From Nemertoderma westbladi (lineage: Eukaryota; Animalia; Xenacoelomorpha), in the NCBI GenBank assembly GCA_032718475.1, contig JAUCBJ010000513.1, positions 1-34,109 of the forward strand: a stretch of 34,109 bases of DNA. The letters run 5' to 3'. Shown in pieces: positions 3,428 through 34,109 of the stretch (its first letter is position 1; the number at the start of each line of letters is the position of its first letter). The position numbers and the translations under genes are program-made. The notes under the pieces are model-generated. The model had not been told where the DNA came from. It did not search any database and saw nothing but the letters and a program-made list of their open reading frames with translations.

Positions 3428-3447
3428 GATTTAATTTTAATTTCTAG

Positions 3448-3963: not shown

Positions 3964-4031
3964 TTTATTTACTATGGTATACATGAAAGTTTACTATATT
4001 ATTTATTTTGTGTTGGTTTTTATTTTTCCGT

Positions 4032-5162: not shown

Positions 5163-5163
5163 A

Positions 5164-8534: not shown

Positions 8535-9539
8535 TCCTGAAACTCTGGATTTTGACCACCCATCCCTGATCGATACCCAAGATGTTGAAGGATACACGCA
8601 GACCAAACCCGAGACTCAAATGGTACAAGAAGATGCGATCCGTAAACAGCTCGGAGATTACATATAGCAAGTGTGTTACGATATATGGCGCTGTATACTA
8701 TTATCAGCCCATTATACAGAATAGAATATTTAGATAAGCCGTAATGACATGCAGCCATAGTTAGATAGGGAAAATAAAATATCCACATTCGTAGATCTTA
8801 TCCATTTTGTATAGTATGTAGCCCTACGTACGTAATTTTGTAATAAAATATAAATAAATAACATTTACGGTAGCAAGTTTCCTATAAAACCTTAATGCAA
8901 GCTTGCTGTTATTGGTATTAAACGAAATTAATTGTGTATTTGCATCAAATTCCATTATATTTGTCTTCAAATTGGCTTTATATTAGATTGTGCTTAATGT
9001 ACTTTAAATATCGTGAAATTAATGTTAGGGCCACACAATTCATTACCATATATGGTAATAATTTGCGATTTGGAAACCCTGAGGTTCACAATCCAGCTTC
9101 CTTATTGACCCAGTTGTTCCAGGTTGGTCTAGTGGTGGCGTGGATTGATGAGCCAATGGGACGATTATTGCGTCATCCCTGTTGTATCACCTATAAATTG
9201 GCTGTGTTTCCAGTATGTGCATCTATCTTTCTTATTCATCTTTGGACCCTTTTCCCTCTTTTGTTTTCGCTTGCAATATTCGTAATTCTTTGTAATTCTT
9301 TGTAAATTCTGATGTGTATCTTATTTCTCTTTAAATTCTTTGCTGTGTTTTCTCAATCATCAATGGTTACTGCAAATTACAACCTCGAACTATGATTTCT
9401 ACCCTCTGATTAATAGTTTTCTATGTGATTTAAGATGCGATAATCCCACGGGATTTCCTTAGACTGCCAGACTGTTTGTGAATGCATGCGCCGCTATGGT
9501 AGCTATTTGTTCTAATGGAGGGCTAAGGTACCGGTAGGC

Positions 9540-10708
9540 GCGGCGGGTGCACCGGGGGGAAGCAACGAAGGGAGTGCAGAGGATTCAAAATGGGCAATGT
9601 TGGCGGAGGGGTCACCGTTGCGGTCGGGAGGTAGTCAGTCAGTGGGGACTGAATTCCTGTTGCCGGATCAGTATTTGGGGGCTGACGATCCAGATTTTGT
9701 CTCTATTTGTAGTGTTAGGGGGCAGGACTTGGGTTTGTTAGGAAGCCTATATGTAGCCAGGGGAGGCCTTCGTGTTCTACACTGCTAACTGCTAATTGTA
9801 AATTGTTAATTGCATACTATACTGGTATACTGATACACTACTGTGTGGCTTTAGTGCACTAGCTGACTGGTAGTCAACGCAGTACTGTACTACTAGCTGA
9901 TTGCTATGCTAATTTCTGTGTTGCTAAAGTGTGCCTGATTCTTGATTATGAATGCTTAGTTAGGCGCCTTTCCCTTGATTGATTTCTATTTCTTAGTTTA
10001 CGTTTAATAATTGCTGATTAGGTCAAAATAATACAGTATTAAGGCTGTTGCTAGTGTAACCCAGTACGTAATAAATTAGAATTGCGTATTCTGGAACATT
10101 CAGTAATTAGTACGCTGTTCCCTATTTATGACTGTAATTAATTAGCGTTCAAATAAGAATTTGTACGGAGCATAGCGGAGAGTAGTTTAAGTAATTATTT
10201 AGAATACTGTAGACTATTCACGCTAGGTGGTTATTTGAAAATAGCGGGCAACAAGCTGATAGCAGCATCCTGTATACAGTAGTAGGTTGCTGGCTTAAAG
10301 CCAGCCGAAGGCAAGTTTAGACCCTAAATACAGTACCACGATTGGTCCCGGTAGGTCATTAAGTTATTTAAACATTCTCACATTCATCAATTCTGTTAGT
10401 GAATTCCAGTACTTGCGATAAGTGAACATGCTGAGTGTAAGCCACCCCCACACTCGTTTTAAGTAGCTTAGGCGAGCCGATTCGTGTTTATTGTTTTGGT
10501 TATTCCCGCGTGGCTCATAGATTCGAACAGTTAGCTCTCTGTCGAGCGATCGGTAGAGAAAGGAGCAAGCGATTTTGTAGGAGCCGTATAAAATTAGTAA
10601 AACAAATTAGCGGATGGCCAGGTTAGCGCCATCCAGCAGTGAGAAGCAATTTTGTGTTTAGCAGCAGTGCAGCAGTAATAACGCGCTCCTGATCGCGCTT
10701 GTTTAACA
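9540..10708 (+). repeat. 5' LTR
   Basis: Colinear with 24179..25338. Homology ends at GATCGCGCTTGTTTAA(CA). The left edge is fuzzy (about 9530-9550). Confidence 0.88.
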
Positions 10709-11678
10709 GTAGAACACGTGATATTTGCTGTTGCTTGCAACAGTAAAGAGTGTGTTCACTAATCGCAAAATACAGCAGTTCATTGGGCTGTTAGGGTAGT
10801 GTACTGTTTTTATTTACTGTTACTTCGTAATAGTAAAACACAATTTTTATTTTTTGCTGTACTACGTACAGTAAGATATAAGGAGTGCATTTACTAATCG
10901 TAATACAGTAATTCATTAGGCTGTTAGGGTAAATTGTAAATTAGTAAGTTTTGAAATTTTAGCTAGGTTTGTGAGAATTCAGTTTCGGTCAAAATTATTT
11001 TATAATATAATCCAGAGTTTTTGTACCGGTATGTTAGATAACCGCTTAGTTGTTTTATACCATCTGGAGATACATGGCGAGACGGAGCTTCTGAGTTTGG
11101 GGTTTGTGTGGGCCTGCGGGTTTGGTTTGCAATCAGCGACGAGACTGAAACTTTGGACGCGGATGTGGAATCTCACAGCAAACAAGGTTGGTTGTTCTGT
11201 TGGTACCATTGTATTTGTGGAAGCAGTAAAAAATTACCGGTTGTTTAACGGCGAAGCTGAACTTAATTTATTAGTTAGGATAGTTATAGGTTAAGCCGGT
11301 CATGGTATCCAGGTCGCAACCTGAAGGTGTAGCCACGCGCCAGTGGATATATATAATATTTAAAAATAAAATTACGTCGATTTTGAGCTATATATAAAAT
11401 TAGAAATATTTGGGTGACTGATTCATTTTTTTGAATTTTTTGAATTAGATTCAAAACTATTTTGTGTCATACCGGTATTTAAATGCTATATAATAGCTAT
11501 AGAGCAATATTTTCGTTTAAATGTCATACCGGTATTTACTATAACTATATACCATTAAATTCACAATATTATATTGCGAATTTATTTTGACATTTGAGAC
11601 CAAATTATTTGGTACATAATTTAATTGTATTTCGATTAAATTAATATATCTCGAATTTTTGCGAGATTTTAGCCGACT

Positions 11679-14600
11679 ATGAGTGTCTCAGAGAAGGAGG
11701 CACTAGAGGACAGTTATGAGACGGCGGCCGGACCACCGAATGATAACAGTATAGACATAACTGTTGATGACAATGCCGACTATGACGATGCAGCAAGTGA
11801 CGCTGACGTAAGTGAACAGGAGGACGAGACAGTAACCAGTGAGGAAGAACAAGGTGAGATAATACCTTTAGGATCCCCTACCACTACAGTAAGGAAGGAT
11901 TGCACAGCAGCCTGGCCAGAGGTGAGTGATAGGGAAGGAAGTGTAGCAGGAGCGAAAGCCCAGAGCCCGGTTTCCAGACCTGTGGGTATGGTAAGTGCCG
12001 TGGCCCCAGTGGATGTAAGAAGTACCCGTAGTTCCCGTAATAATCCCTCAAGTCCACCGAGTGTGAGTCAGGTAAGCGAGAGAGAGGTAGATATCAAGAT
12101 AAAGAAGAAACTTCGCGCGCATTCCAGACATATAACCTGGATGACAGACAAGGTAAGGAAGATGCTAGCCGACTCTGTTAACATCGGAAGAGAAGGGTTA
12201 GTAGAATTTAGAAAGGGATATAACTCAGCGTTGTTTAAGCAGATGGAGGAACTTGCAGTCCTAGCGAAGAGAGCAGTGGAGTCTCAGTTGAGTGATGTAG
12301 CGACTAGGGTTTATGACAGGGCTTTGGCGGCCTTGTTGGATCACCGCGCGTTATCGGAGCGATTCCGACGAGTTAGGACAGAAAACTGGTTGCTATGGGT
12401 GTCGCAAGCGCAGGCGACTCAGGTAAGTGACGCGGAGCTAAGGAACTTAGTGGGGCAGGAAGAGACCCAAGACAAGGAAGAGCAACGATACCAGAAGGAA
12501 GTCACCAGCTGGCTGATGCAGAGCAGAGTATTAGTACCGGGTCAGGTGTTACCGACGACGGAGAATATCCAGCAGAGGACGTTAACTCCACCCGACGACG
12601 CAGCCAGAAACAGTGGTGATTCTCAGGTTAGTCGTGCGCAAGGGAAGGTTATATGCGCTAGATCCCTAGTTTCTCACAACTCGGCAGAGGAGAGAAGACG
12701 ACAATTAGACGAACAACAGGCAGACGTTTTACGTGCGTCGGAGGCACGGAAGGAAGCCAAAAGAGAAAGGGAGCGCAAACGGAAGTTAGACGCAAAGCTG
12801 GGCGAGTTGGAGGACATAAGTAAGCGTGAGCAAGCCGAGTGCGAACACGAAGAACGCGAATTCTAACTCGAGCGCAAACATGAACAGAAGGAACTCTAAC
12901 TCGAGCGCGAATGCAAAGAGAAGGAACGCGAGCGCAAGAAGCGCAAACTCCAACACGAACGCGAATGGGAAGCCAAGGAACGCGAACAAAGGAGATGCGA
13001 ACTCGAGCGCGAGAAAGAGCGACGCGCACTATACGAAGAAAAGGAGTGACTGGAAGAAGAGAGCGCAGCGAGACTCGCGAGGGAAGAAGAACAATGCAAA
13101 CTGGCGCAATTGGAAAGTGCGAGACTAAACTTAGAGAGCAAAGAACGAACTAGGAAGGCGAATGAAATCGCCGAGAAGGGGATGCGAATGATTGAAGAAT
13201 GTGGGGCGAGTGTAGGTACCGAGTTGCGAGAACTGTTCGCACAGCAGAAGGCCAAACAGGAGGCGAGAACTCCAGTTATATGTAAGTCGACGGCGACCAG
13301 AATTCCTATACCCGGTCCAGCTATTATGAGTACTCGGATCGCTAAACCGTTTTCTACATATCGCACGCTGGTTGGCATTAGTGCTTCACCCATCGCGCAG
13401 GATCCGTGCCATCAGGACGGCGCACCGCGACGCAATTATTATTGGGACGAGAAGGAGTTTAGAGAAGAAACTCCTAGAGGCCGAGTATTGGGCGAACCGA
13501 AACCGCAAGTTTGGAATACGCGGATGGATCGCCGACCCAGTTCGACGGAGAACTTCCGGGTTAAAATGGAAGAGGGATCATATGAGAGACAGCGGATTAC
13601 ACAAATAGAGCCGAAAATTCAGCAGAACCCTAGCCAGGAGTTTATTACAAGGGAGGAGTTAGGTGCCAGTTTAGCGCAAGCTATATCGCCACACATCCAA
13701 CCTATAACGGACATGCTTAGTAACCTACAGTTAAAGGAAGCAGCACAGGTAAGAAGTAATTCTAATCCTAGCAGGCCTGAACTAGATAGAGTCCAACCTG
13801 GCCAACAAGTACGCATATCGGAGGCAACAATACCACAAGGACCTCAGGTAAGAACGCCCGTCCCTATGATCTATAATCCCGATTTCGAACACTCGGCGGA
13901 AAGGTTTATACAAGAAGCATCAGCACATGAACATTCGGCATGAACACTCGGCACATAAACCGACGCGAGCGCTGAGAACCGACACAGACTCGAGCGATGA
14001 ATAGGAAAAATGAGACGTCAGAAGTCCCAAAACCGGAAGGAAAGAAGGACCGACGCCGAGCAGGTAAGTATGAATCCCCGGGAAAGGACCAGACTTAACA
14101 ACCCTGCAGAACTAAACAATTTGTTAACCTGGAATGACGCAACCCTTAGAGACATAGGTAAGTTTGCCGCTGGGCAAGGACTGCCGACGCAACAACCCCA
14201 GAAGTTTATGGGCAACCATAGGCATTGGAGGACGTTTAAAACCTATGTCGACGAACAGCTGACCAACAGCACCTTTACTCCCAATGAGAAATTCAACTAT
14301 TTACTGCAAATTCTCCATCGAGAACCTATAGCCATTGCTGATAACTTCGTCAGCAATGAAAGAGTGTTTGAACTAGCTATGAAGACACTTAGTGACATCT
14401 ACGGGAATAAAACCAAGATGGCACAGTCGATAGTGGAAGACTTGGGTAAGGGCAGAAGGATTACGACCCCATTGGAGCTGTTGAACTTAGCGAACGCTAT
14501 TTCAAACGCATTGGACATCATAAGGATGGTAAATCAGCCTCATCATGGTGATCATGCCGAAGTTTTAAAGAGTATAATTAAGACTCTTAAATATGCATTA

Positions 14601-15224
14601 CCGACAGAAATGGTGCAAACTAGAAAATAAGTTAGAGGGTCAAGGTAAGGTGTTGACACTTCAACACATCCATGACATGATAGCCACAGATGCGGTAGCA
14701 GAGATGAAATCAAACTTCTCAGAGGAGAATATGAGAGAGTCTAAACCTGTTACCGGTAAGTCAATGGTAAGTTTTGACGATGACAGAACCACTGTAACTT
14801 TTAACTCAGTAGACAGATACAATTCGAGTACCCCTGCCTTTAGACCAGACTTGTGAGTATGGTCAGGTGAGAGGTCAGATAGACCTAAGGTGAAACAACA
14901 GGAGTTGCCGAATTCTGCCTACTAAAGGAGGTAAGATCGGACGACCATAAGTTAGACAGTTGCAGACGGTTCAAAGAATTAACTTCGGAACAGAGAAGGG
15001 TTCAAGTGCGGACGTTGGACACCTGTTGGGCATGTCTTGCACCAGGTCATATACGGCGCCAGTGCCCGAACAGCAAGGACAGATGCATGGAATGCGGCAG
15101 ACTACATCACAAGTTGCTACATGCAGACATCCATACCCCAACCCCTACAGAGGAATCCTCAAAGGAAGGGGAGCAGAGATCCCGTAACGATAAGAAGAAA
15201 TACGTACACTGGCATCCACGATGA
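11679..15224 (+). pseudogene. gag: BEL/Pao gag (coiled coil, DUF1759-like capsid region, Cys/His knuckles), disrupted
   Basis: E/R/K-rich coiled coil; PQKFMGNHRHWRTFKTYV..EKFNYLLQIL; knuckles CWACLAPGHIRRQC and CMECGRLHHKLLH. Several stops and frameshifts. Confidence 0.9.
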
Positions 15225-18200
15225 TGGATATCAACCAGGTTCGTCAGACAAGGATGGCGAAGCGAGCGCGAGAGAGGTGACCTGCCAAGGGTTCACCACG
15301 GATAGTTCATCGACCAGCGCGCGGACGTATTTATCATCAGCCACGTCAGAAATATTCAGCGTGATTCCGGTGAAACTTACTGGAGATAAGGGATCGAAGA
15401 GAATATATGTGATGTTGGACACTGCATCCACATTATCGTATATAGATGAGGAAGTGGCGAGAGCCGTTTCCAGCTTCCAGGACGCCGATGAAATAAAGAT
15501 AGAGTTAAAATCCATGCACGGGGTAGGTGACCTCAAGGGACATAAGATTTCGGTAGAACTAGACTCCCTACTCCCGGGAGACCAGCACACTCACCAAGAG
15601 CGGAGAGCGTTGCCATTGGATGGATTTAAGTGTCTAGCTATGAAAGGGTTCAGCAGGCAGTTAGGTAAGGTGCCACCGATGAGTCCCATAGCACAGGAGT
15701 ATTTTGACAAGCTCAGAATACCGAGACACCAGGTGGGTTATAGGAACGTATCTATGTTGATTGGAGCAGAACAGCTAATCGCGCACCAAATATGGGAAAC
15801 GAGACCAGCTGAGCTGTATGTAAATGGGCCACACGCCCATAGGACTATATTATGTTGGTATACACGAGTACCCATGTCCTATGAGTTTTCAGGCGGCGAC
15901 AAGCCAAAGGATAGACACGACGAATTACAGCCTATAACACAACAACCATTAGTAGAACCACCAGACATAGACGAGTTTAGGAGAACCTGTATTGACCACT
16001 ATAGCAACTTTAGCGAGTCAGACGAGGAGTTGATTCCCGATAATGTTAGATTGTCGGAACCACTCTACAATGACCGGACAGATACTGAACCCGAGGACTA
16101 CTGTTATCAGACCCGTGGGTCTGGTTCAGCTGCCCACGCCACTTATTTGAGTAACGTTTTGACTTATACCAATATAGTGGATGGTCAGGTGGCTAAATAT
16201 CGAGACCTCGACATTTTTCAATTCAGTAAGGAGGAGTTACAGAAGGAACTGATACGCCAGTACCTCGAGACAGGAGCTAAAACTGTCAAATGGCTGGACA
16301 GGGATGCGATGGAACCCGGTGGTTATGACCTAACCATGTCCACAGATGAGAAGCGGTCGCTAGAGATGATGGAAGATATCATACATCTGCTACCGACAGG
16401 ACATTTTGAAGTTGGAATGTTGTGGCGTCGACAACCCCTTAAGTTGGAGAACAACTACAACTTGGCCCTGAAAAGATTGAACGGAGTAAGGGCTCGGTTG
16501 CTAAAGAATCAAGACGCACAAATCAACAACTATTTCGTCAAGGGATTTGCTGGGAAGGTAGAGAACCCCGACTTAGTAACGGACCAGACTTATTACCTCC
16601 CACACCACTATGTGACTCACCCCGACAAACCAGACAAGGTTCGAGTAGTCAATGACTGCGCAGCAGGCTATAGAGGTATGTCCCTGAATTCAGAGTTGAT
16701 GGATGGTCCCAACCTAAATAACTACTTGATAGGGATACTATTACGCTTTAGACAGCGGCGATTTGCGTTTACTTGCGACATCGAGGCGATGTTTCACCAG
16801 GTAAGAGCCTGTAAGGCGGACCAAGATAGTCTCAGATTTCTCTGGTACGAGAATGAAGACCTATCCGGCCCAGTGATCACATACCAGATGTATGTTAGGA
16901 TATTCGGCGCCCGCGATAGTCCCAACGGCAAGCTGTTTGTCTTAAAGAAAATGGCAACGGCCCAGATTGGTAAGTATCCAGTAGATGTTATCGAGTCCAT
17001 CCTGAGAAACTTCTACATGGACGACGGATTGGTGTCCAAGGACACAGCGGAACAAGCCATAGAAGTGGCTCACGGCCTACAGGAGTGCTTGGCTATGGGA
17101 GGTTTCCCACTGACCAAGTTCACCACCAACTCGGAGGCCCTATTAGAGTCATTCCTGGTGTAAGATCGCGGGAGCGGAGACATTGAATTGGGTGTAGAAC
17201 CCATCCCCATGGCGTGAGTACTGGGACTCGCTTGGAATCCGAACACGGATAAGTTCCAGGTGAGAGTTAGGTTTGAACCTAGTAGCCCAGACAAAATTTT
17301 GACTAAGAGAATCTGCTTATTAACAATGAGTAGACTATTTGACCCGATGAACTTTATCAGCCCGGTAATATTACAGGCACGAGTATGTATGAGGAAAATT
17401 TGGCTGTCTGACCTAGAGTGGGACGAGCCAATATCCCCTATACATGCAAAGCAGTGGAGAGAGTGGGAAGCCGAGTTACATCTATTGAAAAATATAGATG
17501 TACCCCGCTCCTACTTTCCAAATCAGCTGGTATTTCCAGCTGATCTTGAACTGCACTTATTTAGTGACGCAAGTGACACCGGCTTTGGTATGGTAGCCTA
17601 CCTTCGCCGTGAGGTAAGTCAAGATAAGTTTGAGACGGCCTTTGTGAATTCTAGATCAAAGACAATGCCGGTCAAATACATGACTGTCCCTCATGCAGAG
17701 TTGCAGGCGGCAGTAGTCTCAGTCGAGGTAAGTAAGCAGATAATAGAGGAGTTGGACATGACATTGACATTATTCTATTGGACGGACGCATCCTTAGTGT
17801 TAGTGTATATTGCAGCTGACAATATTGCACTAAAGACATTTGTGGCCAACAGACGCGCTCAGGTCGTAGACTTTTCGACAAAGGAACAATGGAGACATTG
17901 TCCGGGAGTGTTAAACCCGGCCTACATAACTTCGAGAGGTGCTATGCCGGCGGAATTCTGTCAGGAGGAATCCCAGGAGTTTTGGTTACATGGACCTGAT
18001 TTTCTAACCAGGACACAGGAGCATTGGCCAGAGCGATTGAAGATTGTGACCAATCCGATGCCGAAGGATGCAGAAGTCAAAGTGGAGAAAGTCTCCAAGT
18101 CTAAGTCGAAAGCCAAACTCGAGTCATTGGAGCGGCCTGAAGAGTCATTGGAGCGGCCCGGAGACCTGTCAGACCAAGAGACGTACGTGACTATGAGGTC

Positions 18201-19925
18201 CGGAAGGGTAAGTTATGACATAAAACCACCCTTACAGACTACACAAGGGTCACGATTAGTAAGTGACGGACAGAAAATGACCGACAAAATGGAGCCTTCG
18301 GTTTCCATACCTGCGGGTTTGGATTCGAAACTTCCATTAGCCAGTGGGCAACCGTCGCTGGCATTAGAGCCATGTAGTATTTATGACAAATTACTAAATT
18401 CGTCCGCCTCTTGGCTGACAATTTGTAAAAGAACTGCGTGGTTAAGCCGATACGTTTCGTATCTTTGTTTAAAACATTCAGAACATTTAGGAGAACAAAC
18501 GAGCACTAATAGTGAGCGAATTCAAAAATTGAAACGACCTCTGACAGAGGATGAGATTGATCAAGCGGAATTAAAGCATTTGAGGCATTATCAAATGTGT
18601 GCCTTCCCAAAAGAATTCTATCTGTTATCGGCTCAACGACCAGTTCTCTATAAACCCCTCAAAAAATGGAGTCCATTAATCCATAAGGGTTTGATTTGTC
18701 ATAGATCGAGAATCCAGACTGTCGACATAAACTCACAGTTTAGGTTCCCAGTGATAATCCCTAGTCACCCAATAGAATTGCAAAGAGCGATTCTATGGGA
18801 TATACATAAGAGGCTGCATCACGCGGGAAGGTTACACTGTTTGTCGGCAGCGAGACAGCGATTCATTCTATTGCAGTTAAGCATAAGCAGGGCAGTAGGT
18901 ACTATGTACGACGCCTGTCTGGTTTGCAAGAGGGTGAACGCCAGAGTATTGGAACAGGAGATGGCTGAACTCCCGGAAGCGAGAGTGCAGGCATATGACC
19001 CACCCTTTACAAATATGTGGATGGACTGCTTTGGTCCAAATGATGCAAAGAGTGGACGGCTGACCCACAAGAGATGGGGCCTGCTACTGATATGTATGGC
19101 TAGTTGAGCCGTACACATAGAGCGTGTGGCAGATATGTCGACCAAATCTCTGCTCCTGGCCTTAAAGAGATTTGTGGCCAGGAAAGGACTAGTAAAGGCA
19201 TTCTACTCTGACAAGGGTACAAACTTTGTCGGGGGGAATAGCGAGTTAAACGCAGCTCATAGGGCGGCGCAGAATGGAGAAATCTCTGCAGCACTTTTGC
19301 CGCAAAGAGTGGAGTGGAAGTTTAACACTCCAGAAAGACCCTGGAGAGGAGGAAGTTGGGAGCGTTTGGTTCGCTCCATAAAACAGGCTATTGCTAAAAC
19401 ATTGCCTGTAAACAAACAACTTACAGACAACGAGCTGGTAACAGCTTTCATCAAAATCGAGCATACCTTAAACTCGAGGCTGATAGCTATGTTGCCTGAT
19501 GGTGTTGCATTAACGCCGAATCATTTGCTAATGCAGAGTCCAGCGTTTCTTGTGCCAGCATCAGAACCCAATAGTGCCGACCTATACAGTCGAAAGAGCT
19601 GGAAAATAACACAGTTCGTAGCGTACACATTCTGGGAATATTGGCGGGAATATTATCTTCCCACAATATCCACCAGATCTAAGTGGTACAAAACAGTTCA
19701 GAGCCTCCAAAGAGGAGACTACGTATTAATAACCGAACCAGTTGTCAGAGAAAATATTGGGAGACTGGAGTCATCTTGCACATACACCCGGACGTACAAA
19801 ATATAGTACGCACTGTCACTGTAAAAATAAGGTGCAAGTATCCAAACAAGAATAAGTATAAAACTAATGGTTTACACACACAGACTGGTCCAAGATATCG
19901 TGTTACTAGAGAAGACACGCATTGA
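15037..19925 (+). pseudogene. pol: BEL/Pao pol (aspartic protease, RT, RNase H, integrase), disrupted
   Basis: Protease MLDTAS. RT: YYLPHH, KVRVVND, DIEAMFHQV, LRFLW, NFYMDD. RNase H: LHLFSDAS, FYWTD. Integrase: HHAG..CLVC, MDCFGP, YSDKGTNF, GGSWERLVRSIK, FWEYWREYY. Stops at about 17161, 17215 and 19105, plus frameshifts. Confidence 0.96.
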
Positions 19926-20727
19926 GACAGGAGACTATAATTTATCTTCTGCCTCAAACCAAAATTAGTGTTAGAATGCAAATTCACTTCGTATACATTC
20001 CTCGTATGCAAATACTCGGAAATGCATAGGAGCGGGTTTGTGGTGATTTGTGTTGAGAATTTGTCTGGTGGGTATCAAAACAAAATTTTATTTTCATAAA
20101 ATGTTTGGAAAATTAAAAAATTTTAAAATTATATGTTGAACCCAAGACAATTCCAAACGCTGCATATAGACGCGTTCTAGAATTCGTCTATAGATGTACA
20201 GTAATTTGAAAGTCGTGAAGCCTGGAAAATAGTATCTAGACACCATGGTTACGGCTATATTAAGTAGGAGTGTAAATTGAGTTCAGTAACTTCCACAGAT
20301 TGGTGCCAACAGTACAACAACCAAGGTGCTAAAGGTTAGTAGCACCAGAGGCGTACACAGACCCCACTCAGTAGTTTGCAGTGGAGTGAGGTGTTCGATT
20401 ATCAAACCTGCGGGTTTGGTATAGTCGAACGCCATAACTATTATCCTTTCTAACTACTGTAGTCTACTACAAGTATTGGGGAGTAGCTTGGGCATCAAAA
20501 AGTGAGTCGGTCATGGCCAGTTTATCTCCGAAGTTTTTGTGCTATGCATGGGAATAGGTTAGAAGGTAGTTAGGAATGAGACGGGATCTAGAAACCTGAA
20601 CCTGAACTGCTGGAAGGCGGCCGGGTAGCTCGGGAAGTTCGTCCCTCCGCATCATCTAGCTGACTTACCCACAGTGTAATTAGTTACGTAACGGACCTAA
20701 TTGGGATAAATATATATACTTGGCAAT

Positions 20728-23700
20728 ATGGAAAAGGAGATTCGAGCACAACCGAGGAGAGGTTTCACCGCCAGAGAGGAAGCGGAACTACGGTTCGCCC
20801 GACCTGGGTGTAAAGATTCCAATGTTTACTACCATGGGAGATCGGTAATGGAGTTGAATGGGAAGTGTAACCCCACGTACGAGAAGGAGTTGAGGAGGGA
20901 ACGGATGCGAGCGTTGGGAGACCGCATGGAGGTTCTACGAAAGGAATATCGCACTCGTTATCCCTACGACTTTGCCCTTGATGTGTGCAACATTAGCGCC
21001 GGCCCTGATGAGGAAATCACCTGTCTATATCATATGAACATGTATTTACGGCACGATGAACCGCTACCTGCAGTCCGAGATCAATTCAACGGGATGCATC
21101 TTTACCGGAGGACCCGAGGCGAGGATCCTGAGACGCCAAAGGTTTTCAGTGTATACAAGTTGTTCTAAAAATGCGGCGAATGCATGAATAAGCAAGATGT
21201 AGCAATTCCCGATCGACTGAATGAGCAGAATCCTGAACCGATATTAACGTGATGTCAAGCTCATCAGTTTCTTAGATATAACGAGGGAGGTTACCCGATG
21301 AGCAACCCGATGATCAGTATCGACTGTAACAGAAAGAGACCTCCGAGACCCATTACGCCGACCGTTATGACTTTAGATCTGTATACGGAGATTAAACCCT
21401 GTTCGACACCCGCCTTGATAGAAACGGCGGCGGCCATTTCGCTTTACCGAGCCTATAAAGACCTAGAGGCGCGGCGCGAAGCGGCACGGGACTCAAGTAC
21501 CAAACCCGGGGGTTTGGAACTCTCGAGTCCCTGGACCACATTTACTTCGCCTCACCGAGGGAGAAAGCTCACGCCTGAGCATCAGGACGATATAGACACG
21601 TTGCAGCAGGAGGAGCGAGTGGCGAAAGCGAAGCAGTTATTCGAAGAGCATATAGCGGAGTACAACAAGACTGCGGATAGACATCAGGAGGAAACTAGGA
21701 GAGTGACTGGATTTGTTCCACAGGCTGTATCTCAACCCCGACTGGTGTATTATTCCGACGGCAACGGACCTGCAATATTGGTAGATCACCCGGAGTCGCG
21801 AGAAGCCATTCGATTCTTGCCGATGGTGACATTGTCGGATCATTGGAACGTTGACTGCTTACAGGAAGTTTTATGCGCGAAGTTCTTGCGTGACGTCCCG
21901 ATGCAAATAACGGATTATGATACGTTAGACAAGATCGGAGCTCCGGGGAAGGAGAGTAAGTTATTCGGTTGGTTGGACAAGTATATAAAGGAATGGGTCG
22001 CGGTGGCTACGTTCCCAGACGACCAGGAGGTATATCAGGTGTGGCTGAGGAGGAAGGGTTCCTATACCCAATATGATGACCATAAGGCTATCGAGCGCAT
22101 ATGGACCCCATCCGACGACATCCAGCGTCAATGGAGGAAGACGGAGGAATCCCTAGAGGATTGGCATGTAATGTTCTATGACAACGAGGGAGGGTCCCAC
22201 CAAGAGTGCCTAACTAGCAAGTGCATTCAAATTCGCGTGGCTGATGGCATGACTCACGTATTTATGCGCGTGAGGGCGGACTGAGAGAGACTGGAGCCCA
22301 TCATAACGACGCAATACCGGCGAGGGAAGGATCCTAGGGAGCAGATCTTGGAGGTATGTAGGCGAGGGGGTATGCATGGAGCGGAGCGTATCGACGCCAG
22401 GATGTTACCCAAGAAGGTTAGAGAGGCGATTCTTAACCAGGATTACGTAAAGGTGGGATCAGGAGTCCAAAGTGATTTGGAGAGCGACTTCAACGCCATG
22501 GCGGATTTGGAGGATCGATTGCCGAGACCGTTTGTCGACACCAAGCTATTATTGCTATGGGCACAGGATATTGGAATTTATAGGGAGTACCCAAACTCTG
22601 CTAAGACTGGTATGGGCTTTATAGCGCATTTGTTGTACAACTGGGACTTCAAGTTGAAGACGCAAAAGAAATATGAGAAGGCGTACGGTGAATATAACAC
22701 GCCGCCGCGAGCGGAGTTCAAATCCCACTTTAAGTGGCAAGCGTTAGTATTGGAACATCTGCGCGCCACCCCGTGCGTTGCTGCAATATTATTTGGTACT
22801 AGAGTCGAACACGGTAACTTGTTTAGTGGCAAATATCATTGCGCGAGTTCTGAAGCGTCATCCATTGGTGTTCGGAGGAGATCAATACGTTCGTTCGAAA
22901 GGAGGAATCCAATCTGACGTGATGAAGCGTTTCTTAACCCCGTTCTTCAACCAATCGCTACAAAACACGTCGAAGGTTTGCCGTTGGTGAAACGAGACTG
23001 ACCATTCATTCCATACGTGCACCGTCTTCATTTCTCAGTGTGGATATTGTGGGGTAAAGGGACACCGTAGTGCAAAGTGTCAACTGTGTGATGATTCCTT
23101 CCAGAATCATAGCGCCGAACCTCCTTCGGGGGATGTTAGACAAGTGGGAGGGTGTGGCTGACTACCACATCCAGGCGCAAATGCGGTGGTTGTCGTTTAA
23201 AGCAGGATACAGGTTCTGGGCGGTAGATCCATCACACGTTGCCTACAAACCGTATTTGCAATCCCTACCACAATACCAGGAGCTAATACTGACTGCTCAA
23301 GACCTTCCGCAGAATACAGGAGTTATAGTCGTTAGATCATATTTTCGACAGTTAAACATGGACAATAAGTATACCTGGAATTTCGTTGCTATTTGCGACA
23401 GAATAACCAGAGGTTTATTTTCAGAGACGAGAAAGGTGCGCGAGGAGACTGGAGGATGGCGGCTATACAATACCGCAACGAATTCTTGTTGACTCACATA
23501 CGGGTGGGGTCATTGACCGCCGAACGGGTGGAGGTGCAACGAACCGCGGCGCCCACAGCGACAACAGCCGGAGCTCACAGCTCGCAGCAAGTACCAGAAG
23601 GAGGAGTCCTAGACAAGCGTCAAGTTAAGGACGAGCAGTTTCACTCTATTATCGACACACAACGACTGCAACGGAAGGCACAAGGCGCGTCTGAAAGGGC

Positions 23701-23944
23701 GCGCTTGCAATTGCAGAAGGAGGAGTTGGCAGCAGAGGCGCCCGCAGGGACACGGCAAATGGGACGAGGCCGAGGGAGAAGCACCAGTCAAGAGATAGTC
23801 GGTGCTCAGGGAACGTCGTCGCCGGTTCCGGGAAGTGACGCCCCACGGACGCCGTCAACCGAGTCTACAAGAGGAAGATTAGTGTATCTGGGGAGGGGGC
23901 GAAAGAGAGGAACGAGCCCGAAGGACCCAGGAGCAAGCCGATAA
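20728..23944 (+). pseudogene. Extra ORF: RNase D/WRN-like DEDDy-type 3'-5' exonuclease with CCHC knuckles, disrupted (about 1050 aa)
   Basis: ExoI FYDNEG (22180) then CIQI. ExoII MLPKKVREAILNQDYVKVGSGVQSD (D at 22474), then FVDT. ExoIII-like LLQYYLVLE (22790-22804). Knuckle CGYCGVKGHRSAKC near 23040. Colinear homology with 28327..32388. Confidence 0.8.
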
Positions 23945-24178
23945 TGCGATAATATCATGGAGCGACAGACTCTAGACATATACATCATCATCACTCTGAT
24001 GTATATCGTAGGTTTTGATAAAACAATCGACTGGACTCGTATACACTAGTCGTATTCATATATTCTAGAATTTTAGCGAATATTAGCAGAGAGAGGCGAA
24101 GGAGGTGACTGGGGAGACAAACCCGCGGGTTTGGCTTACTCCTTTCACCTGCCCTAGCCAGGCGGCTGGCTGGTGGCT

Positions 24179-25338
24179 GCGGCGGGCTTCCCACCGCACC
24201 GGTGGGAAGCGACGAAGGGATTCAAAATGGGCAACGTTGGCGGGGGGTCACCGTTGCGGTCGGGAGGTAGTCAGTGGGGACTGAAGACCTGTCGCCGGTA
24301 CAGTGTTAGGGGGCTGACGATCCAGATTTTGTCTCTATTTGTAGTGTTAGGGGGCAGGACTTGGGTTAGTTAAGAAGCCTATATGTAGCTGGGGGAGGCC
24401 TTCGTGTTCTACACTGCTAACTGCTAATTGTAAATTGTTAATTGCATACTATACTGGTATACTGATACGCTACTGTGTGGCTTTAGTGCACTAGCTGACT
24501 GGTAGTCAACGCAGTACCGTACTACTAGCTGATTGCTACGCTAATTTGTGTGTTGCTAAAATGTGCCTGATTCTTGATTGTGAATGCTCAGATAGGCGCC
24601 TTTCCCTTGATTGATTTCTATTTCTTAGTTTAAGTTTAATAATTGCTGATTAGGTCAAAATAATACAGTATTTAGGCTGTTGCTAGTGTAACCCAGTATG
24701 TAATAAATTAGAATTGCGTATTCTGGAACATTTAGTAATTAGTACGCTGTTCCGTATTTATGACTGTAATTAATTAGCATTAAAATAAGAATTTGTACGC
24801 AGCATAGCGGAGAGTAGTTTAAGTAATTATTTAGAATACTGTAGACTATTAATGCTAGGCGGTTATTTGAAAATAGCGGGCAACAAGCTGATAGCAGCAT
24901 CCAGTATACAGTAGTAGGTTGTTGGCTTAAAGCCAGCCAAAGGCAAGGTTAGACCCTAAATACAGTACCACGATTGGTCCCGGTAGGTCATTAAGTTATT
25001 TAAACATTCTCACATTCATCAATTCTGTTAGTGAATTCCAGTATTTGCGATAAGTGAACACGCTGAGTGTACACCACCCCACACTCGTTTTAAGTAGCTT
25101 AGGGAGCCGATTCGGGTTTATTGTTTTGGTTATTCCCACGTGGTTCATAGATTAGAACAGTTAGCTCTCTGTCGAGCGATCGGTAGAGAAAGGAGCAAGC
25201 GATTTTGTAGGAGCTGTATAAAATTAGTAACACATATTAGCGGACGGCCAGGTTAGCGCCATCCAGCGGTGAGAAGTAATTTTGTGTTTAGCAGCAGTAC
25301 AGCAGTAATAACACGCTCCTGATCGCGCTTGTTTAATA
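24179..25338 (+). repeat. 3' LTR
   Basis: High-identity copy of the 5' LTR with scattered transitions and small indels. It ends GTTTAATA, versus GTTTAACA in the 5' copy. Confidence 0.88.
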
Positions 25339-25340
25339 AA

Positions 25341-27017: not shown

Positions 27018-28326
27018 TGTAGGCCCATGTGATAACTCTACATATGTTTGCGCTTTTAGACCTTTAGCAGTTTAACCCGCTAATTTTAGGTGTCTTTTAG
27101 TTTGTAAATCGACTTTAGCCTATGACTAGTATTTGATACAAATAAACACTACATTAGCCAAAGCCAGCCTATGCGCGACCATTCACCCGCTGGATTTACC
27201 CGGGAGACTGGATTTGGAAGCTCTGACCTTATTGCGGTGTAGGCCTACTGTACTATTCGATTGATCGGTAATATATATAATCTCTGACAAATATTATTCA
27301 CTTTCGGGAAATACTAACAGTTCCTTTAGGACGTGGCGCTCTAAATATGTAAACAGAGTTATGACTTATACTAAACACAACGGGATGGCTTATGATTCAC
27401 ATATAAGGCGCATTCTTTAGGAGATGCTTTGTTATCAGTCACACTCATGCCCACCACCGCACAATACTGCCCACTGATCTGCCGACCGTCACTGAATTTG
27501 ATCATACATAAAGAGAATAACAACTGACACCTGTAGTGCCTATGAAATAGCATTAGATTCACTCCAAAACCAATATAATGTAAGTCGAAATTGCTATATG
27601 TAACCGGTCTCTTACCTTCAGTATATCAAGAAGATGGGGGTTTTATGATTATTTATCGATATTATCCAAATATAACATTATTCCATCAACTGATACAATT
27701 AATAACCGACAGTAAAATAGCAGTAAAATAAAGCGGTGAAAGGTATGCACAGTATGATATAGGCTGTTGTGAGTTGATATGACTTGTATGAGATTTGAGT
27801 TAAGTAAGATAACAGTTATACGTTTCTATATTCAAAGCCGTTCTAATGTTTGGCTAAAGTCTGAAACACAGAATAATTCCACAGCCGATGTTCTGGCATC
27901 AGGAAAAAAGGTAAACATAGACCATAATGTATTGCGCAATTTCCCGGAGGCTTCTGTGCAAATAAAATGAAAATCGCTCTGATTGGCTGAGCCGAACAAA
28001 GAAAGCTCCACGAGTACAGTAAATCAGCTGATAGATGTTGTAATCTGAACTACACTGTATTAAGAGTATTTTGACGCATTGCGACATAAAATCGCTAGTT
28101 ATGTCTGCTAAAGCACACATACAGAAAAATGGCTTTTTATGTCCACTAAAACACCAGTACAGTAAAGAAATGGCTTTTTACGTACGCTAAAACACCTACA
28201 GAGTACTTTGCGGGGAAAATGACTAGCTATATCCGCAAAAGCTTTTACACCGCTCCCAGAAAATGGGATTTAATTCTATAAAATATAAAAAATCACAGTT
28301 TCTAAAATATAAAATATTCTAAACAG

Positions 28327-31300
28327 TTAGTCTTTTTTGCGCGGACGGCGTTTACGCAGTTTTTTGAGGCTAGCAAGAGTCCTTTTCTCTTTGGGGCGAG
28401 CCACTTTACTAGGAGGGCTATAACTTCTGGGTGAAGGGTGCAATACGATTGCATCAGAAGGTTTAGGATTACGGTCGGTGTATCCGCCGGTCGAGGTACC
28501 TGGTTGATCTATATCAACTTCAGTGGAGCGAGGTCTAACAGCCTTTAGAGTGTGTCTTAGGACCGCAGCTCCTACTGGTCCCTGACGAGTCGTCTGGACA
28601 ATAGTGGTAGGTGGACCGCGAGTGGTAAGAAACTTCCTCGGTTTAATGGTTCTTTCCAGCTCGCTTTCTCAGGCTCGATATTCGTAGGGCCGTCGATGTA
28701 CTTCCTGTAACTCAGGGTGCGAGTTGATGAACAAATCGCCATACTCGGGGTCTTGACGGACGGAATTAATCAAATTGTATGAATTAATATTGTTAGGATT
28801 GATGTTCCTGAGATATTTACGAACAAATTTGGTGGAAACACACTCACCTATACGCTTCATTAGTTCGTAACTCGGTGTGCGCGATTTTTGTTCAACAGAT
28901 GCGAATAGATAAGGATGGAACGCGTAAACTCCTTCGTAGGCTCGTCCAGGGTAATAGCGATGGCGTGACTCACAATGTAAATCCGCATTCGCTTCCCAAG
29001 CTCGGATGTAGCGCAGGGTAATCATCTCATCTAGGCTTTCCAGATCGCGGTTAAAAGGGCAATCAAAACTGGCATGTCCTTTAAGTTGACAATGATGGCA
29101 TTGAGTCATAAATTGGGGGCAGATTGCGAAAATATGCGAGTTATTGAGTCTGCAATACGCACAATAGATCTCCATCATCGGTTGTTCATGGAAATAGGAG
29201 CAGGGTATGTCTGAGTCCATAGGTGTGAAATGATCTCTCGAGGCGCATAATCGGCAACGTTTTCGAGAAACATAGTTGGCGTGCCGATAATCGTATGCGG
29301 TGAGACATTGTGGACCTTGATACCATTCCAAGACGTAGTCGTTATCGCTGCTCCTGGGCGCTGTGGGATGAATCTCCTCAGATTCTAAGCATATTGGTTC
29401 GTCTTCCAATTGCATAGCTGAGGTAGGAGCGGATGTCTCCGCAAGCAAACCCACTGTCTGAATTTCCACGACAGAATAACCCGTGGGTATTCGAGGTCTT
29501 TGTATAACAGATGAATGTAAGTTCTGTATACAAACGTCCTTGAAAAGGGCGAATCCCGCGCTGTCTAACTTCTCCGCAGCTGAGTCTCTTAGGCTGAGCT
29601 TAGTCAGAGCGCGGTCCTTGAACTGACTATCAACGTTACGGAACGGAGTCAGAAAGCGCCTGAAACATTCAAAGCGGATGAATTTATTGTGTTCATCTAG
29701 CTTGGCGAGTTTGGTTCCAAGTATTAAGGGATGGGCGCGTATGGTACGACTGCACACATCGGCTAGCCAACCGGCAATTGCGGCGTTTTCAAAGATCGTG
29801 TATATAGCTAAGGAGGGACGAAGTGGAATGCTCATAAAGCCATACACGGCGCCAGGTGCGGTCAATGGTCCATCAAAGTATAATCGAGAATAATGATCTC
29901 CATATACTTGTTGGTAGTTGATAGGATTTCCAACCTTGAAATTCCATCCATATTCTTGAAAGGCAAGATGTCCTATGGAGGTTCGTTGTACTTTAGTGAT
30001 GCCGCTGGGTGTATTTGCATACATAGTGCGGAAGAAACCTCAGCCTTCTGCCCAGGGAGCAATCAGCTGAGTATCGACAAAAGGGTATGGAATGTTCTCC
30101 ATTTTCCGAAAGTCGTTTTGGAGATCTCCATAAACAGCTGAGCCGATTTTAAGGATTCTTTCGTTAAATAACATCTCAAGCACGGGCTGGGGTAACATCG
30201 ATCCATCGATACCCATGGCCGGTTTGCGCTCGGTGTCGGTGACGTAACGCTGCGCGAGTTCGAATTGTCCATGTTTCTTTTGTATCTCGGTACGGGTCTC
30301 AAAAGAATAATCAATCACATCAGAACACGCTCGAGTAAATACGTGGGTAGAACCAGCTAGTCCTCGTATATGTATCATGCGCGTAGTTCCCAGTTCTCCA
30401 ACCGGAACGCTACCTTCGTTATCGTAAGTGACAATTCCATACATCTCGATAACATTAAGAGTCTCATTCCACTCTTTAGTGGCGTTTTCTAGAGTCATTC
30501 CCACTGGATGCCACAAGGTAGCGCTTTTGCTAGCATTAGGTAGATCTCTATACTTTAAGTATTGTGTAGTATATGTTTCCACATCTCCATATCGTTGTAT
30601 TCTTTCCTCCTCGAACAACACGTCGAGATTCCAGTGGACGTATTGTCTCTTTCTCTATTCTGGAAACATTATAGGGTTTTCGAAATGAGTTTACTTTCAC
30701 TAACTGATCCAAATATTTCTGTAGTTGTTCGAGTTCGACAAGATCGAGAGGATTTATTAGTGGTAGAAACTTCAGACTATGTGTAGGATCTTCAGGTTTT
30801 ACCATGTAATATTGCGTTAGATTGACATAATAAGGATGATCTTTAATCCCATAAAACGATTTCGGTAAAGGTCTAGCGTGTATGTTAACCTCGTGTACCA
30901 TACGACGGACAAGATCCGCTCTATTGTCCGGAGGTTCAACAAGTATACCATCGACACGAGCAGCCTCGATTGGCGGACTTTGCAACATGGGAGCGTCAGC
31001 GATAAGATTTTGAGATCTTAGGTTGATATCCACCGGTTGAGGCTGTGTCGTGGTGAAGAGTTTGTCTCCGAAATGGGGAACCATCAAAGGATGGATGATG
31101 GTTTTAGAATAGAGATCCGTCATAAGGATTTGAGCTTCTAGCTGGGCTAAAGCTGCTTATTCTCTCTCATCCATTTCTATGTGTTTCTCTTCGAGCTGAT
31201 TTTCCTCCGCTTGTTGTTGTAAACGCTCATCTAGAAACTCTTGTAGAGAATAGGTTCATCCACGTTCGATGTCTTCCTCGAGATTCTGGATTTCTTTATC

Positions 31301-32388
31301 GAACTGGGGTAAAGCTAATTCTTTCACCGCTTGGACTTGTTGCTGCAATTTGCGTTTCTCTAAACAATCATAAGTTCCTTTTCCGATCTTCTGCCGAATA
31401 GCGTCTAACATGTTTCGTACAACGCTCTCTTTGACGTCGGTAACGGGTTGGATTGGGGTTAAGCCTGGACGGTTATATGGGTTAAACGGCGATATTAGAT
31501 GACCGCGTCCTAATTCGGCTAGGTAGGGTTGGTGAATATCTAGTGAGCCCACTACCGGAGTGCCGCCGATTAATTGTTCGGGTAACACAAGATCTTTAAA
31601 CAGTGAGTACAGTTCAGGGGGATCCGTTATACTATTAGGATCAAGCGTTTGAGGTCTCACTAAGGAATGAGGAGGTCTGACCGAGTATTCCGGAACTCTG
31701 ATCATTGGTTTATTTAAGGATTGTTTGAGCCGAGCGAGCGTAGGTGATACATCAAACAGGTTTCGCTCGAAACTCCCATAAGTATATCGTGTAAAACTGT
31801 GTTTAGCGCAACGTCTCCGCGAATGTTTAGGTCTTTCCGTTTGCTGATTTGGTCTAGGGCATTCGTCGCAGTAATACCAAAGACGCACGTCCTGCGTCGC
31901 GGAAACGCGGGTGATCGTTCTCCAGTTTTACAATATTCCTCCATCTGTTCGAAGCTAGGTAGCGGTCGATCGGCGGTAAGATACATCATAGTGAAATAGA
32001 GCCGTTTGAGTTCTATCATAGGGTCATGATGTATACCTTGAGGATATCAAGTTTCTAGATTTTGTTGACTGGCAATATTGAGATATGTTTCTCTCAGGAA
32101 TTCCAGATAATCGTTGAAGTTGCTGCGTTTATCCGGCTCTTCAACGTCTTCTCTTTTGAGTCTGTTTCGAATAGAATTCTCGTGTTCTATTCTCGGTTTA
32201 TCGTTACGACTCTGCTGGGTATGATATTTAAATAAAACCATTTCCCTTTCGGTGTCTACATTGTCCGTATCGTGTAAATCGATAGGATGGCCAGTAGTTA
32301 AGAAGTCCATATACGTACCATTACGATGCGTATAGCGAGCGGTGAATTTTCTATAGTCCAATTCACGCGTAAGTTGCTCCTGGGACAT
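28327..32388 (-). pseudogene. Second, diverged homolog of the exonuclease/CCHC extra ORF (about 1300 aa, disrupted)
   Basis: ExoI TYDNEG (30423). ExoII MLPQPVLEMLFNERILKIGSAVYGD, then FVDT. ExoIII-like LAIYTIFE. Three Cys/His clusters. The frame continues past the TGA at 28669 to a TAA at 28327, ending LKKLRKRRPRKKD. Confidence 0.8.
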
Positions 32389-34109
32389 TGGCGGTTCGAT
32401 ATAACAACCATCGTCCTCCGTAGTAGTTAGTCAGTACCTTCCAGAATGCCACGTTATTATTAATTATATGATGTTGACAACCACGACTTTAGAGGGATTG
32501 TAATATTAATATTAAAACAATAAAATAGGACATTATTTTCGTTATTATTATGTATCCTTGGATACTAGCAGTGTGCTATTTATTCCCTATGCTATTCAAT
32601 GGGGCAAGCTTTCTATTGTTCTTTTTACTCACTTCTAATTCTAGCGTGGTTGTTGCTATGGTGACATTATGGAAAGCTAGCAGTAGAATTAGGGTAATTC
32701 TCATGCATACAGATCTGGGATGCTATTTAATAGTAATTCTTTAATTGTCAATATCCCCTTTATACATGATTTGGTAAATTTTATCGGCTATTGACTATAT
32801 ATTGGAGATTCTCGCACACTAATACACTTAATAGGGTGAATCTCCGCTCCCATGATCTATTAATTAATAGAATTTTGGGAACATTATAAATTGTATAAAA
32901 TGACAATTTATCAAATTCATTAAAAGAGATGAATTAGAATTTATTCCCGTAAATTTTATTATTTAATATTAAAATAGACACAATTTTATTCCAGAACATG
33001 TCTGGGGACGTTAACCACTGATTCTAGAATTTTGTCTTTCAAGTATATCGGTGGGTGCCGCGATATCTTAATCGACTAGAATTACAGATGGTCAAAGTGT
33101 TTAACAGATTTATTTTGCGTTTTACGCTACTGTTAAAGGGACATCACGCTACTATATGTATTATTTAATATACGGTATGAGAGCAATATCGCACGAAGCA
33201 ATGTCAGTGTGAAGAGGCAAGTCGTTTCCAAGGTCTACCCAGAGCTTGGTTTCGCCGAGACACGAGGATCTGAACTTTGCATTCCTAATACTCTGCTTAC
33301 CAATAATACTGGAATATAGTAGGAGCTTTATTGTACTTTAATAAGTACGGATATTTCATCTTACTGTAGTCACGTATTTATAATATGATACGGACAGTAA
33401 GGAAAGAGAAAAAGAATTATTTCTCGCCGTCGCACTAAATATATAATATACATAATTAAGTAATAAGACTAATATATTGCACTAATCTACTAAATAATCG
33501 CTAAAATAACACTATTTAAATAACTTGCGATATTTCCAAAGCTAGCCTTTTAAGTTTTAGCAATGGTGTGGACCAAGTATGTTGTATGTACTTAACATAT
33601 CTTTAAGTGCAACTACGTAGTTCTACAAAGTATAACAAGTTTAATGCATATACTTTGAAAGCTTAGAAAGTTTCTAGCAAGGGCTTTGAATGTATTTATA
33701 TGTACAACTACTTAGCTTTAGAGGGTATAACAAGTTTTAAAGAGGCACTTAGAAAGATTAGTACGCCTCAACCATGTAATTTGAAAATATAAAATTGTAT
33801 TGACTTCGGAATATAATATGGTGACTGTACGGGTGTTATATTCTTCCAATTTTTAATGAAACATCAAGATGAATCTAATTTTTGTTTAAGGGCATTGTAT
33901 AAGTGTCATACTTTAATGTAAGTGAGATACTCAAATATTGTCATCTTTTTTTTATACGTTTTATTATATTTTTGTTATTTATTATTTGTGATATACCGAT
34001 CTAGCACTTTATATGATACCAGGTCGATTCGCTTTAAGGCGGTATAGAGACGAGTAACTCCCCGTAAAAGGTGCCTAGGGGGCGTTCATAAATTATGTCA
34101 CACACAGGG

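What the first reader, a model, noticed from the sequence alone, without database searches (positions are those of the whole stretch)
28327..32388. Second, deeply diverged full-length homolog shows the extra ORF is an old conserved family
Seen: colinear blocks between the two copies: EITCLYHMNMYLRHDEPLP / ELKRLYFTMMYLTADRPLP; IRFLPMV / LKFLPLI; YDNEG / YDNEG; GMTHVFMR / GSTHVFTR; PRPFVDTKL..WA / PYPFVDTQL..WA; YNWDFK / YGWNFK; HPLVFG / HPLILG; KRFLTPF / RRFLTPF; WEGVADYH / WEANADLH. I saw no obvious DNA-level identity. Inference: long-term purifying selection in at least two element families. Its own gag-pol should lie to the right of the window.
Basis: partly seen in the sequence, partly recalled or inferred. 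Interest (0 to 1): 0.8.

Follow-up and report, generated by a model that had tools for sequence, protein, structure and literature searches.

The report
Exonuclease gene in second retrotransposon family
A broken gene inside a very high-copy animal repeat encodes the same large protein (a nuclease domain predicted to trim RNA ends, plus two zinc knuckles) as the extra gene of a neighbouring BEL/Pao jumping gene, so it is likely a conserved accessory gene of a second retrotransposon family, although this copy is cut short and its own replication genes were not seen.

Summary
Observation confirmed. The minus-strand frame 32388-28327 (about 1,350 codons, five internal stops, two frame changes) is a colinear homolog of the extra ORF of the BEL/Pao element at 8674-25338. 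There is no DNA-level match, and third codon positions are saturated. One outside relative was found (P0005). Its fold matches DEDDy exonucleases (EXD2, RNase D, Nibbler). Public contigs show the gene inside a high-copy unit (about 27030-33511), so it is not a single-copy host gene. The window copy breaks off at 33511 into unrelated low-copy DNA, so gag-pol is not simply to the right, and the carrier's class is unproven. Verdict: a new variant (BEL/Pao, large, knuckle-bearing) of the exonuclease ORF3 known from rotifer retroelements. This scan earlier noted Rrp6-like ORF3 genes on gypsy elements in other genomes. Its function, likely RNA 3'-trimming that counters small-RNA silencing, is untested.

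The parts
28327..32388 (-). Copy 2: broken long ORF, about 1,354 codons. Internal stops at 32049, 31258, 31159, 30042 and 28671; frame changes near 31766 and 30660.
31890..32120 (-). N-terminal block shared with copy 1; function not assigned, no Pfam match
   Evidence: 26 of 63 codons identical
29718..30489 (-). DEDDy-type 3'-5' exonuclease domain: ExoI D-x-E at 30429-30412, ExoII D at 30135-30118, inferred ExoIII Y-x3-E at 29805-29785
   Evidence: fold of the aligned relative P0005; weak RNase D match E 0.016
29059..29163 (-). Two CCHC zinc knuckles in tandem, shared with copy 1 (one broken there) and P0005
   Evidence: P0005 knuckles match retroviral nucleocapsid, E 1e-4
28700..29040 (-). 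Conserved block after the knuckles (WEANADLH), followed by a divergent tail that ends in a basic run
27028..33511 (-). High-copy mobile unit that carries copy 2. Left end between about 27028 and 27100 (a ...CA end at 27028 is inferred); right side is a break, not a natural end.
   Evidence: depth steps, loose ends and flank contigs; junction sequence
32389..33511 (-). AT-rich non-coding stretch upstream of copy 2 (1,123 bases up to the break), part of the high-copy unit; no pol remnant
33512..34109 (.). Low-copy flank that does not belong to the unit
   Evidence: depth 164-203 in the last bin; three contigs begin to match exactly at 33512
20728..23944 (+). Copy 1: broken ORF3 of the BEL/Pao element, between integrase and the 3' LTR
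8674..25338 (+). BEL/Pao element carrying copy 1: gag (DUF1759), pol (Peptidase_A17, integrase zinc finger, DUF5641), LTR parts 94% identical, 5-base target duplication, empty site seen

Best explanation
This is a decayed copy of a large accessory gene, homologous along most of its length to the third gene of the neighbouring BEL/Pao element, lying in a separate high-copy repeat that is likely the 3' half of a second LTR-retrotransposon family; its protein is predicted to bind RNA through two zinc knuckles and to trim RNA 3' ends with a DEDDy-type exonuclease domain, likely to blunt the host's small-RNA silencing. Shown: homology, domain order, multi-copy setting, the break at 33511, and the ORF3 position of copy 1. 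Predicted: the DEDDy fold (from the relative P0005, aligned with both copies). Inferred: that the carrier is an LTR element whose gag-pol was lost from this copy (about 0.7); that intact family members are active nucleases although the last acidic residue is Glu (about 0.6); that the target is host piRNA/siRNA or their precursors rather than the element's own RNA or cDNA (about 0.4 against 0.35). The window copy itself is dead.
For: Colinear homology in five blocks. Codon-position identity 45/56/26%. Copy 1 lies inside an element with a proven empty site and 5-base duplication, and its ORF3 has depth of the same order as gag-pol and far above the flanks. Copy 2: summed contig depth 33,000-1,480,000 inside against 164-2,800 on the flanks in 3 of 3 DNA runs (2 samples, 2 studies). 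At two of the five internal stops nearly all laid depth reads otherwise, so these stops are private to this copy (only 40 of 1,262 rows were shown). Layout matches element 1: stop to element end 1,299 against 1,391 bases; upstream spacer at least 1,123 against about 803. Foldseek: 35 matches at E<=0.001; all those listed are DEDDy-type domains (EXD2 E 1.8e-5, RNase D, Nibbler, NrnC, Rrp6, EXD1, Egalitarian). VIA-align best Z 9.0, rmsd 5.1, 123 aligned, EXD2. ExoI D and E and ExoII D are invariant in 3 of 3. No transmembrane segment (best 19-residue hydropathy 1.23-1.37), so not an envelope. Precedent: DEDDy ORF3 in rotifer LTR elements (PMC5408684, passages read).
Against: No gag, pol, second LTR, primer site or target duplication was seen for the second carrier, and no clear polypurine tract before a TG. 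Both ends of the unit are several times deeper than the ORF, which also fits a non-autonomous element. The fold rests on P0005; its model has mean pLDDT 53.6 and is below 50 over most of residues 114-219, which hold ExoIII; copy 2 alone did not fold (pLDDT 30.6). Sequence profiles give only weak support (RNase D E 0.016; PF01612 E 0.2 for P0005). The Glu at ExoIII departs from DEDDy and may mean reduced or no activity. Nothing here bears on the substrate. The genomic setting of P0005 could not be seen. Summed contig depth is not a copy number.
Confidence: 0.6

Rival explanations
1. Same identity, other job: the nuclease works on the element's own replication intermediates (3' end of the genomic RNA, primer tRNA or cDNA ends) inside the particle, with the knuckles acting like a second nucleocapsid.
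For: The knuckles resemble retroviral nucleocapsid. EXD2 and RNase D, the best fold matches, act on DNA/RNA ends and structured RNA (established knowledge). PMC5408684 proposes 3'-end processing of element RNA for the rotifer ORFs (passage read).
Against: Most BEL/Pao elements replicate with gag and pol alone (PMC8742986, whole text), so the step is not essential. Nibbler and EXD1, small-RNA factors, match about as well.
Confidence: 0.3
2. The unit is a non-autonomous or non-LTR element that carries only this gene and is moved by enzymes of another element.
For: No gag or pol in 25339-34109. Ends deeper than the ORF, and contigs that skip inner parts (28480 to 31165, 31214 to 32150). Rotifer DEDDy ORFs are shared between LTR elements and Penelope-like Terminons (PMC5408684; PMC6431247, passages).
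Against: The right end is a break: other copies go on, so the lack of pol in the window says little. The two ends share no direct or inverted repeat. No hammerhead or other Rfam family at E<=1.
Confidence: 0.2
3. The domain is a catalytically dead RNA-binding scaffold, like EXD1, Egalitarian or Maelstrom, that binds or hides RNA rather than cutting it.
For: The last acidic position is Glu, not Asp, in 3 of 3. EXD1 and Egalitarian are among the fold matches.
Against: The other three acidic residues and the Tyr are kept across about 25-33% identity, and the fourth stays acidic. Rotifer ORFs also show a D-to-E change (DEED) and were judged possibly active.
Confidence: 0.2
4. Copy 2 is a single-copy host gene, or a chance likeness, unlinked to any mobile element.
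For: No replication gene lies beside it in the window.
Against: High-copy setting with sharp edges in 3 of 3 DNA runs; no introns; many breaks; it interrupts another repeat's reading frame near 27028; significance far above chance.
Confidence: 0.02

Closest known systems
DEDDy (RNase D-like) exonuclease ORF3 of bdelloid-rotifer LTR retrotransposons Juno and Vesta, shared with Athena/Terminon elements (Rodriguez et al. 2017, PMC5408684; passages and section 3.1 read, figures and supplements not seen)
   Same: Extra ORF after pol, not an envelope, DEDDy fold, one D-to-E change among the acidic residues, no transmembrane part, function untested.
   Different: Here the proven carrier is a BEL/Pao element; the protein is 1,070-1,350 residues with an unassigned N-terminal half, two CCHC knuckles and a conserved C-terminal block; the change is at the last acidic position (the paper writes DEED). 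Direct sequence kinship with the rotifer ORFs was not tested.
Cellular DEDDy exonucleases EXD2, RNase D, Nibbler/MUT-7, Rrp6, NrnC; inactive relatives EXD1 and Egalitarian
   Same: Predicted fold and ExoI/ExoII motifs.
   Different: 12-22% identity in the structural alignments; no HRDC or MUT7-C domain found by Pfam; Y-x3-E; tandem knuckles; mobile setting. The donor cannot be named.
Belpaoviridae (BEL/Pao) with an env-like third gene, such as Tas, Cer13, Roo, Atlas (PMC8742986 whole text; PMC9094657 and PMC13524379 passages)
   Same: Third ORF between integrase and 3' LTR (copy 1).
   Different: No signal or transmembrane segment; element 1 is 16.7 kb against the 4.2-10 kb given for the family; the word exonuclease does not occur in PMC3118150, PMC9094657 or PMC13524379 and is not in the ICTV profile.

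Membership tests
DEDDy (DnaQ-like) 3'-5' exonucleases | DnaQ/RNase H-like fold | tested here: met
   Model of P0005 aligned with both copies: Foldseek E 1.8e-5 to EXD2, VIA Z 9.0. Confident only for the first 110 or so residues; copy 2 alone gave no model.
DEDDy (DnaQ-like) 3'-5' exonucleases | ExoI D-x-E and ExoII D | tested here: met
   Invariant in 3 of 3.
DEDDy (DnaQ-like) 3'-5' exonucleases | ExoIII Y-x3-D (recalled consensus) | tested here: inconclusive
   Y-x3-E at the expected place in 3 of 3; Tyr kept, Asp replaced by Glu; the model is unreliable here, so the assignment is by sequence position.
DEDDy (DnaQ-like) 3'-5' exonucleases | Metal-dependent 3'-5' activity | not testable with these tools
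   Needs an assay.
BEL/Pao (Belpaoviridae), carrier of copy 2 | gag and pol (PR-RT-RH-IN) upstream | tested here: inconclusive
   None in 25339-34109, but the copy breaks off at 33511; no genome is held.
BEL/Pao (Belpaoviridae), carrier of copy 2 | Paired LTRs with TG...CA ends, polypurine tract, target duplication | tested here: inconclusive
   A ...CA end at 27028 is suggested; no second repeat, clear tract or duplication; the 5' end is missing.
BEL/Pao (Belpaoviridae), carrier of copy 1 | BEL-type gag and pol domains | tested here: met
   DUF1759 E 2.4e-8, Peptidase_A17 E 8.4e-38, DUF5641 E 4.3e-9. The frame expected to hold RT (14983-17160) gave no Pfam match at E<=0.1.
BEL/Pao (Belpaoviridae), carrier of copy 1 | LTRs and target duplication | tested here: met
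   1,158 aligned bases at 94%; 5-base duplication and empty-site joint in 2 of 3 runs, one sample. The first 875 bases of the 5' LTR have no partner at the 3' end.
Envelope-type ORF3 | Signal peptide and transmembrane anchor | tested here: not met
   Best 19-residue hydropathy 1.23-1.37; hydrophilic N-termini.
Penelope-like / Terminon elements | Athena-type RT; hammerhead ribozyme at the 3' end | tested here: inconclusive
   No Rfam match at E<=1 in 26900-34109; no RT in view.
Rotifer Juno/Vesta DEDDy ORF3 clade | Groups with these ORFs in a tree | not tested
   The rotifer sequences were not retrieved by any search here.

The most novel reading that the evidence does not exclude
BEL/Pao retrotransposons of this animal group carry their own Nibbler-like small-RNA trimmer with a re-tuned active site, and the second family is a very abundant unit that spreads this counter-silencing gene without replication genes of its own, as a helper for other elements.
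Probability: 0.12. Interest if true: 0.75.

Novelty: new variant of a known kind. Interest (0 to 1): 0.42.

Why it matters
Exonuclease accessory genes of retrotransposons are described, in the papers found here, only for rotifer elements, and their function is open. A large knuckle-bearing version kept by two diverged, multi-copy families in one genome, one of them a proven BEL/Pao element, widens the kind to a third retroelement group. It gives a system with many copies in which selection on the active site and effects on small RNAs can be measured. The family is nearly absent from protein collections (1 hit in 1.84 billion representatives), so such genes are probably under-annotated.

Tried and rejected
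No whole genome is held, so the sequence beyond 34109 and full-length copies could not be read. Word-indexed protein searches: none for copy 2, only P0005 itself for the alignment and for its nuclease region (lengths 'near' only). JGI metagenome scans with the two-copy alignment and with P0005: no relative; the viral-contig scan did not run because the alignment had no conserved stretch. Phage records, tblastn with P0005: none. PDB by sequence: only chance-level matches for the nuclease profiles (best E 0.56 and 0.015), rejected. Pfam gives no nuclease match for either copy; PHROGs nothing useful. Single-sequence fold of copy 2 failed. The ESM Atlas gave no result. No RNA holder was listed; run X5 is only guessed to be RNA, so expression is open. 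Search for a second LTR, inverted ends or a duplication around the second unit: none. Bacterial promoter scan is not informative for an animal. The pair IRFLPMV/LKFLPLI is rejected as unsupported. Literature searches found no BEL/Pao exonuclease ORF. I have an uncertain recollection of an exonuclease domain in nematode Cer elements (Malik et al. 2000 or related); these papers are not held, so this could lower the novelty and is unchecked.

Full report
Observation. Copy 2 runs from ATG 32388 to the stop ending at 28327, with five internal stops (32049, 31258, 31159, 30042, 28671) and two frame changes near 31766 and 30660. Both copies were read with X at every break. The whole proteins score 299 against a shuffled mean of 42.5 (0 of 200). 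The core is 31% identical (68 of 216, E 5e-27). Four blocks outside it are significant at 0 of 1000 shuffles each: an N-terminal block, the block after the core, the zinc-knuckle block and the block after it. The middle part is not (75 of 500; 11 of 1000 when narrowed), and the pair IRFLPMV/LKFLPLI is not its best alignment. Borders were set after seeing the anchors, so the counts are optimistic. blastn finds no match better than E 0.98. Over 399 aligned codons identity is 45, 56 and 26% at positions 1, 2 and 3; the alignment was made on the protein, which raises positions 1 and 2, but position 3 is at chance level.

What the protein is. Pfam names nothing but weak knuckles; NCBIfam gives RNase D at E 0.016 over 45 residues. 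A profile of the two cores found one relative among 1.84 billion representatives, P0005 (648 residues, E 2.4e-8), an unnamed protein seen on one contig of 9,449 bases. It has the same order: nuclease, spacer, tandem CCHC knuckles, tryptophan block. Its knuckles match retroviral nucleocapsid (E 1e-4). A model of its nuclease region, with both window copies as the alignment, has mean pLDDT 53.6, good over about the first 110 residues and poor beyond. Foldseek gives 35 matches at E<=0.001; those listed are all DEDDy-type: EXD2, RNase D, Nibbler, NrnC, Rrp6, EXD1, Egalitarian. VIA-align ranks EXD2 first (Z 9.0, rmsd 5.1, 123 aligned), with DnaQ-like domains filling the list. ExoI D-x-E and ExoII D are invariant in 3 of 3. 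Where the recalled DEDDy consensus has Y-x3-D, all three have Y-x3-E. There is no transmembrane segment. The N-terminal 600 residues of copy 2 remain unassigned.

Where copy 1 sits. It lies between a BEL-type pol and the 3' LTR. A 5-base duplication flanks 8674-25338, and contigs of 2 of 3 runs (one sample) join 8668 to 25339, the empty site. Summed depth over ORF3 (12,000-28,000) is of the same order as over gag-pol (19,000-78,000) and far above the flanks (280-2,400). So copy 1 is an integral third gene of a multi-copy BEL/Pao family.

Where copy 2 sits. In 3 of 3 DNA runs (2 samples, 2 studies; one may be the window's source) summed contig depth jumps from 220-2,800 left of about 27030 to 33,000-1,480,000 across 27033-33435 and falls to 164-203 in the last bin. 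This is no copy number, but the step shows a high-copy repeat with sharp edges and rules out a single-copy host gene. At two of the five stops nearly all laid depth reads otherwise, so these stops are private to this copy (40 of 1,262 rows shown). On the left the unit interrupts the reading frame of a low-copy repeat near 27028, where the minus strand ends in ...CA as LTRs do; this end is inferred. On the right, 25 contigs of X1, and contigs of X2, X3 and X5, leave the window at 33505-33511 and agree with each other, while three contigs that match the flank start matching exactly at 33512. So the window copy breaks off at 33511 and the flank is other DNA. No gag or pol remnant lies in 25339-34109, and the longest open stretch upstream is 58 codons. 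The two ends of the unit share no repeat and no duplication. The layout resembles the 3' half of element 1 (1,299 against 1,391 bases from stop to end; spacer at least 1,123 against about 803). Against this, both ends are deeper than the ORF and some contigs skip inner parts, which would also fit non-autonomous derivatives.

How it likely works. Inferred throughout: the gene is read from its own shorter RNA; the knuckles grip single-stranded RNA; the DEDDy domain trims 3' ends. I favour counter-silencing (about 0.4): the gene is dispensable for BEL/Pao replication in general (PMC8742986, whole text), yet kept by two abundant families, and Nibbler, a structural match, trims piRNA 3' ends (PMC13269885, passage). 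Work on the element's own RNA, primer or cDNA is nearly as likely (0.3-0.35), and a non-cutting scaffold is possible (0.2) because of the Glu. No call bears on the substrate.

Comparison with what is known. DEDDy ORF3 genes are described for rotifer Juno and Vesta LTR elements and Terminons (PMC5408684, passages and section 3.1; PMC6431247, PMC5718144, PMC6338049, passages). Figures and supplements of these papers were not seen and may bear on the motif comparison. Eight searches found no such gene in BEL/Pao elements, and the word exonuclease is absent from three BEL/Pao papers checked. An uncertain recollection of an exonuclease in nematode Cer elements could not be checked. Earlier notes of this scan report Rrp6-like ORF3 genes, some with a knuckle, on gypsy elements of other genomes (untested here); look-ups by sequence found no look-alike of this family.

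Verdict. Real and significant; a second, strongly diverged, high-copy carrier of the same nuclease-knuckle gene. It works like the rotifer DEDDy ORF3; membership of the DEDDy fold family is met for fold and three acidic residues, open for the fourth; membership of the second carrier in BEL/Pao is not shown. New variant of a known kind, interest 0.42.

Noticed in passing
window 3-5379: Element bounded by 216-base, 100% complementary inverted repeats, with a C2H2 zinc-finger ORF (2567-3424), an ORF with a weak TBP match (3448-3960, E 0.003) and several tandem and palindromic arrays.
   Followed up: no
window 5511-6464, minus strand: Tyrosine-recombinase frame (Phage_integrase E 2.5e-7; weak Ndc10_N), possibly a Crypton- or DIRS-like element.
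   Followed up: no
window 8674-10709 and 24196-25338: The BEL element's LTRs are unequal: the first 875 or so bases of the 2.0-kb 5' LTR have no partner at the 3' end, although the target duplication and empty site are clean.
   Followed up: partly
window 11966, 16099, 18297, 20394, 21492, 24109: A 26-base, partly palindromic motif recurs six times through the BEL element at 1-4 kb spacing, also inside coding parts (family D9).
   Followed up: no
window about 7700-8668 and 25339-27027: A low-copy repeat with a broken, coiled-coil-rich ORF and no Pfam match was hit by both exonuclease-carrying elements, 1.7 kb apart.
   Followed up: partly
window 27033-27706 and 32088-33435: The non-coding ends of the second unit are several times deeper than its ORF, and some contigs skip inner parts, a hint of deleted derivatives.
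   Followed up: no
window 29464-32250: A run under a different organism label (X5) holds gap-free pieces of the ORF at about 86-92% identity, so the family may be shared between species.
   Followed up: no
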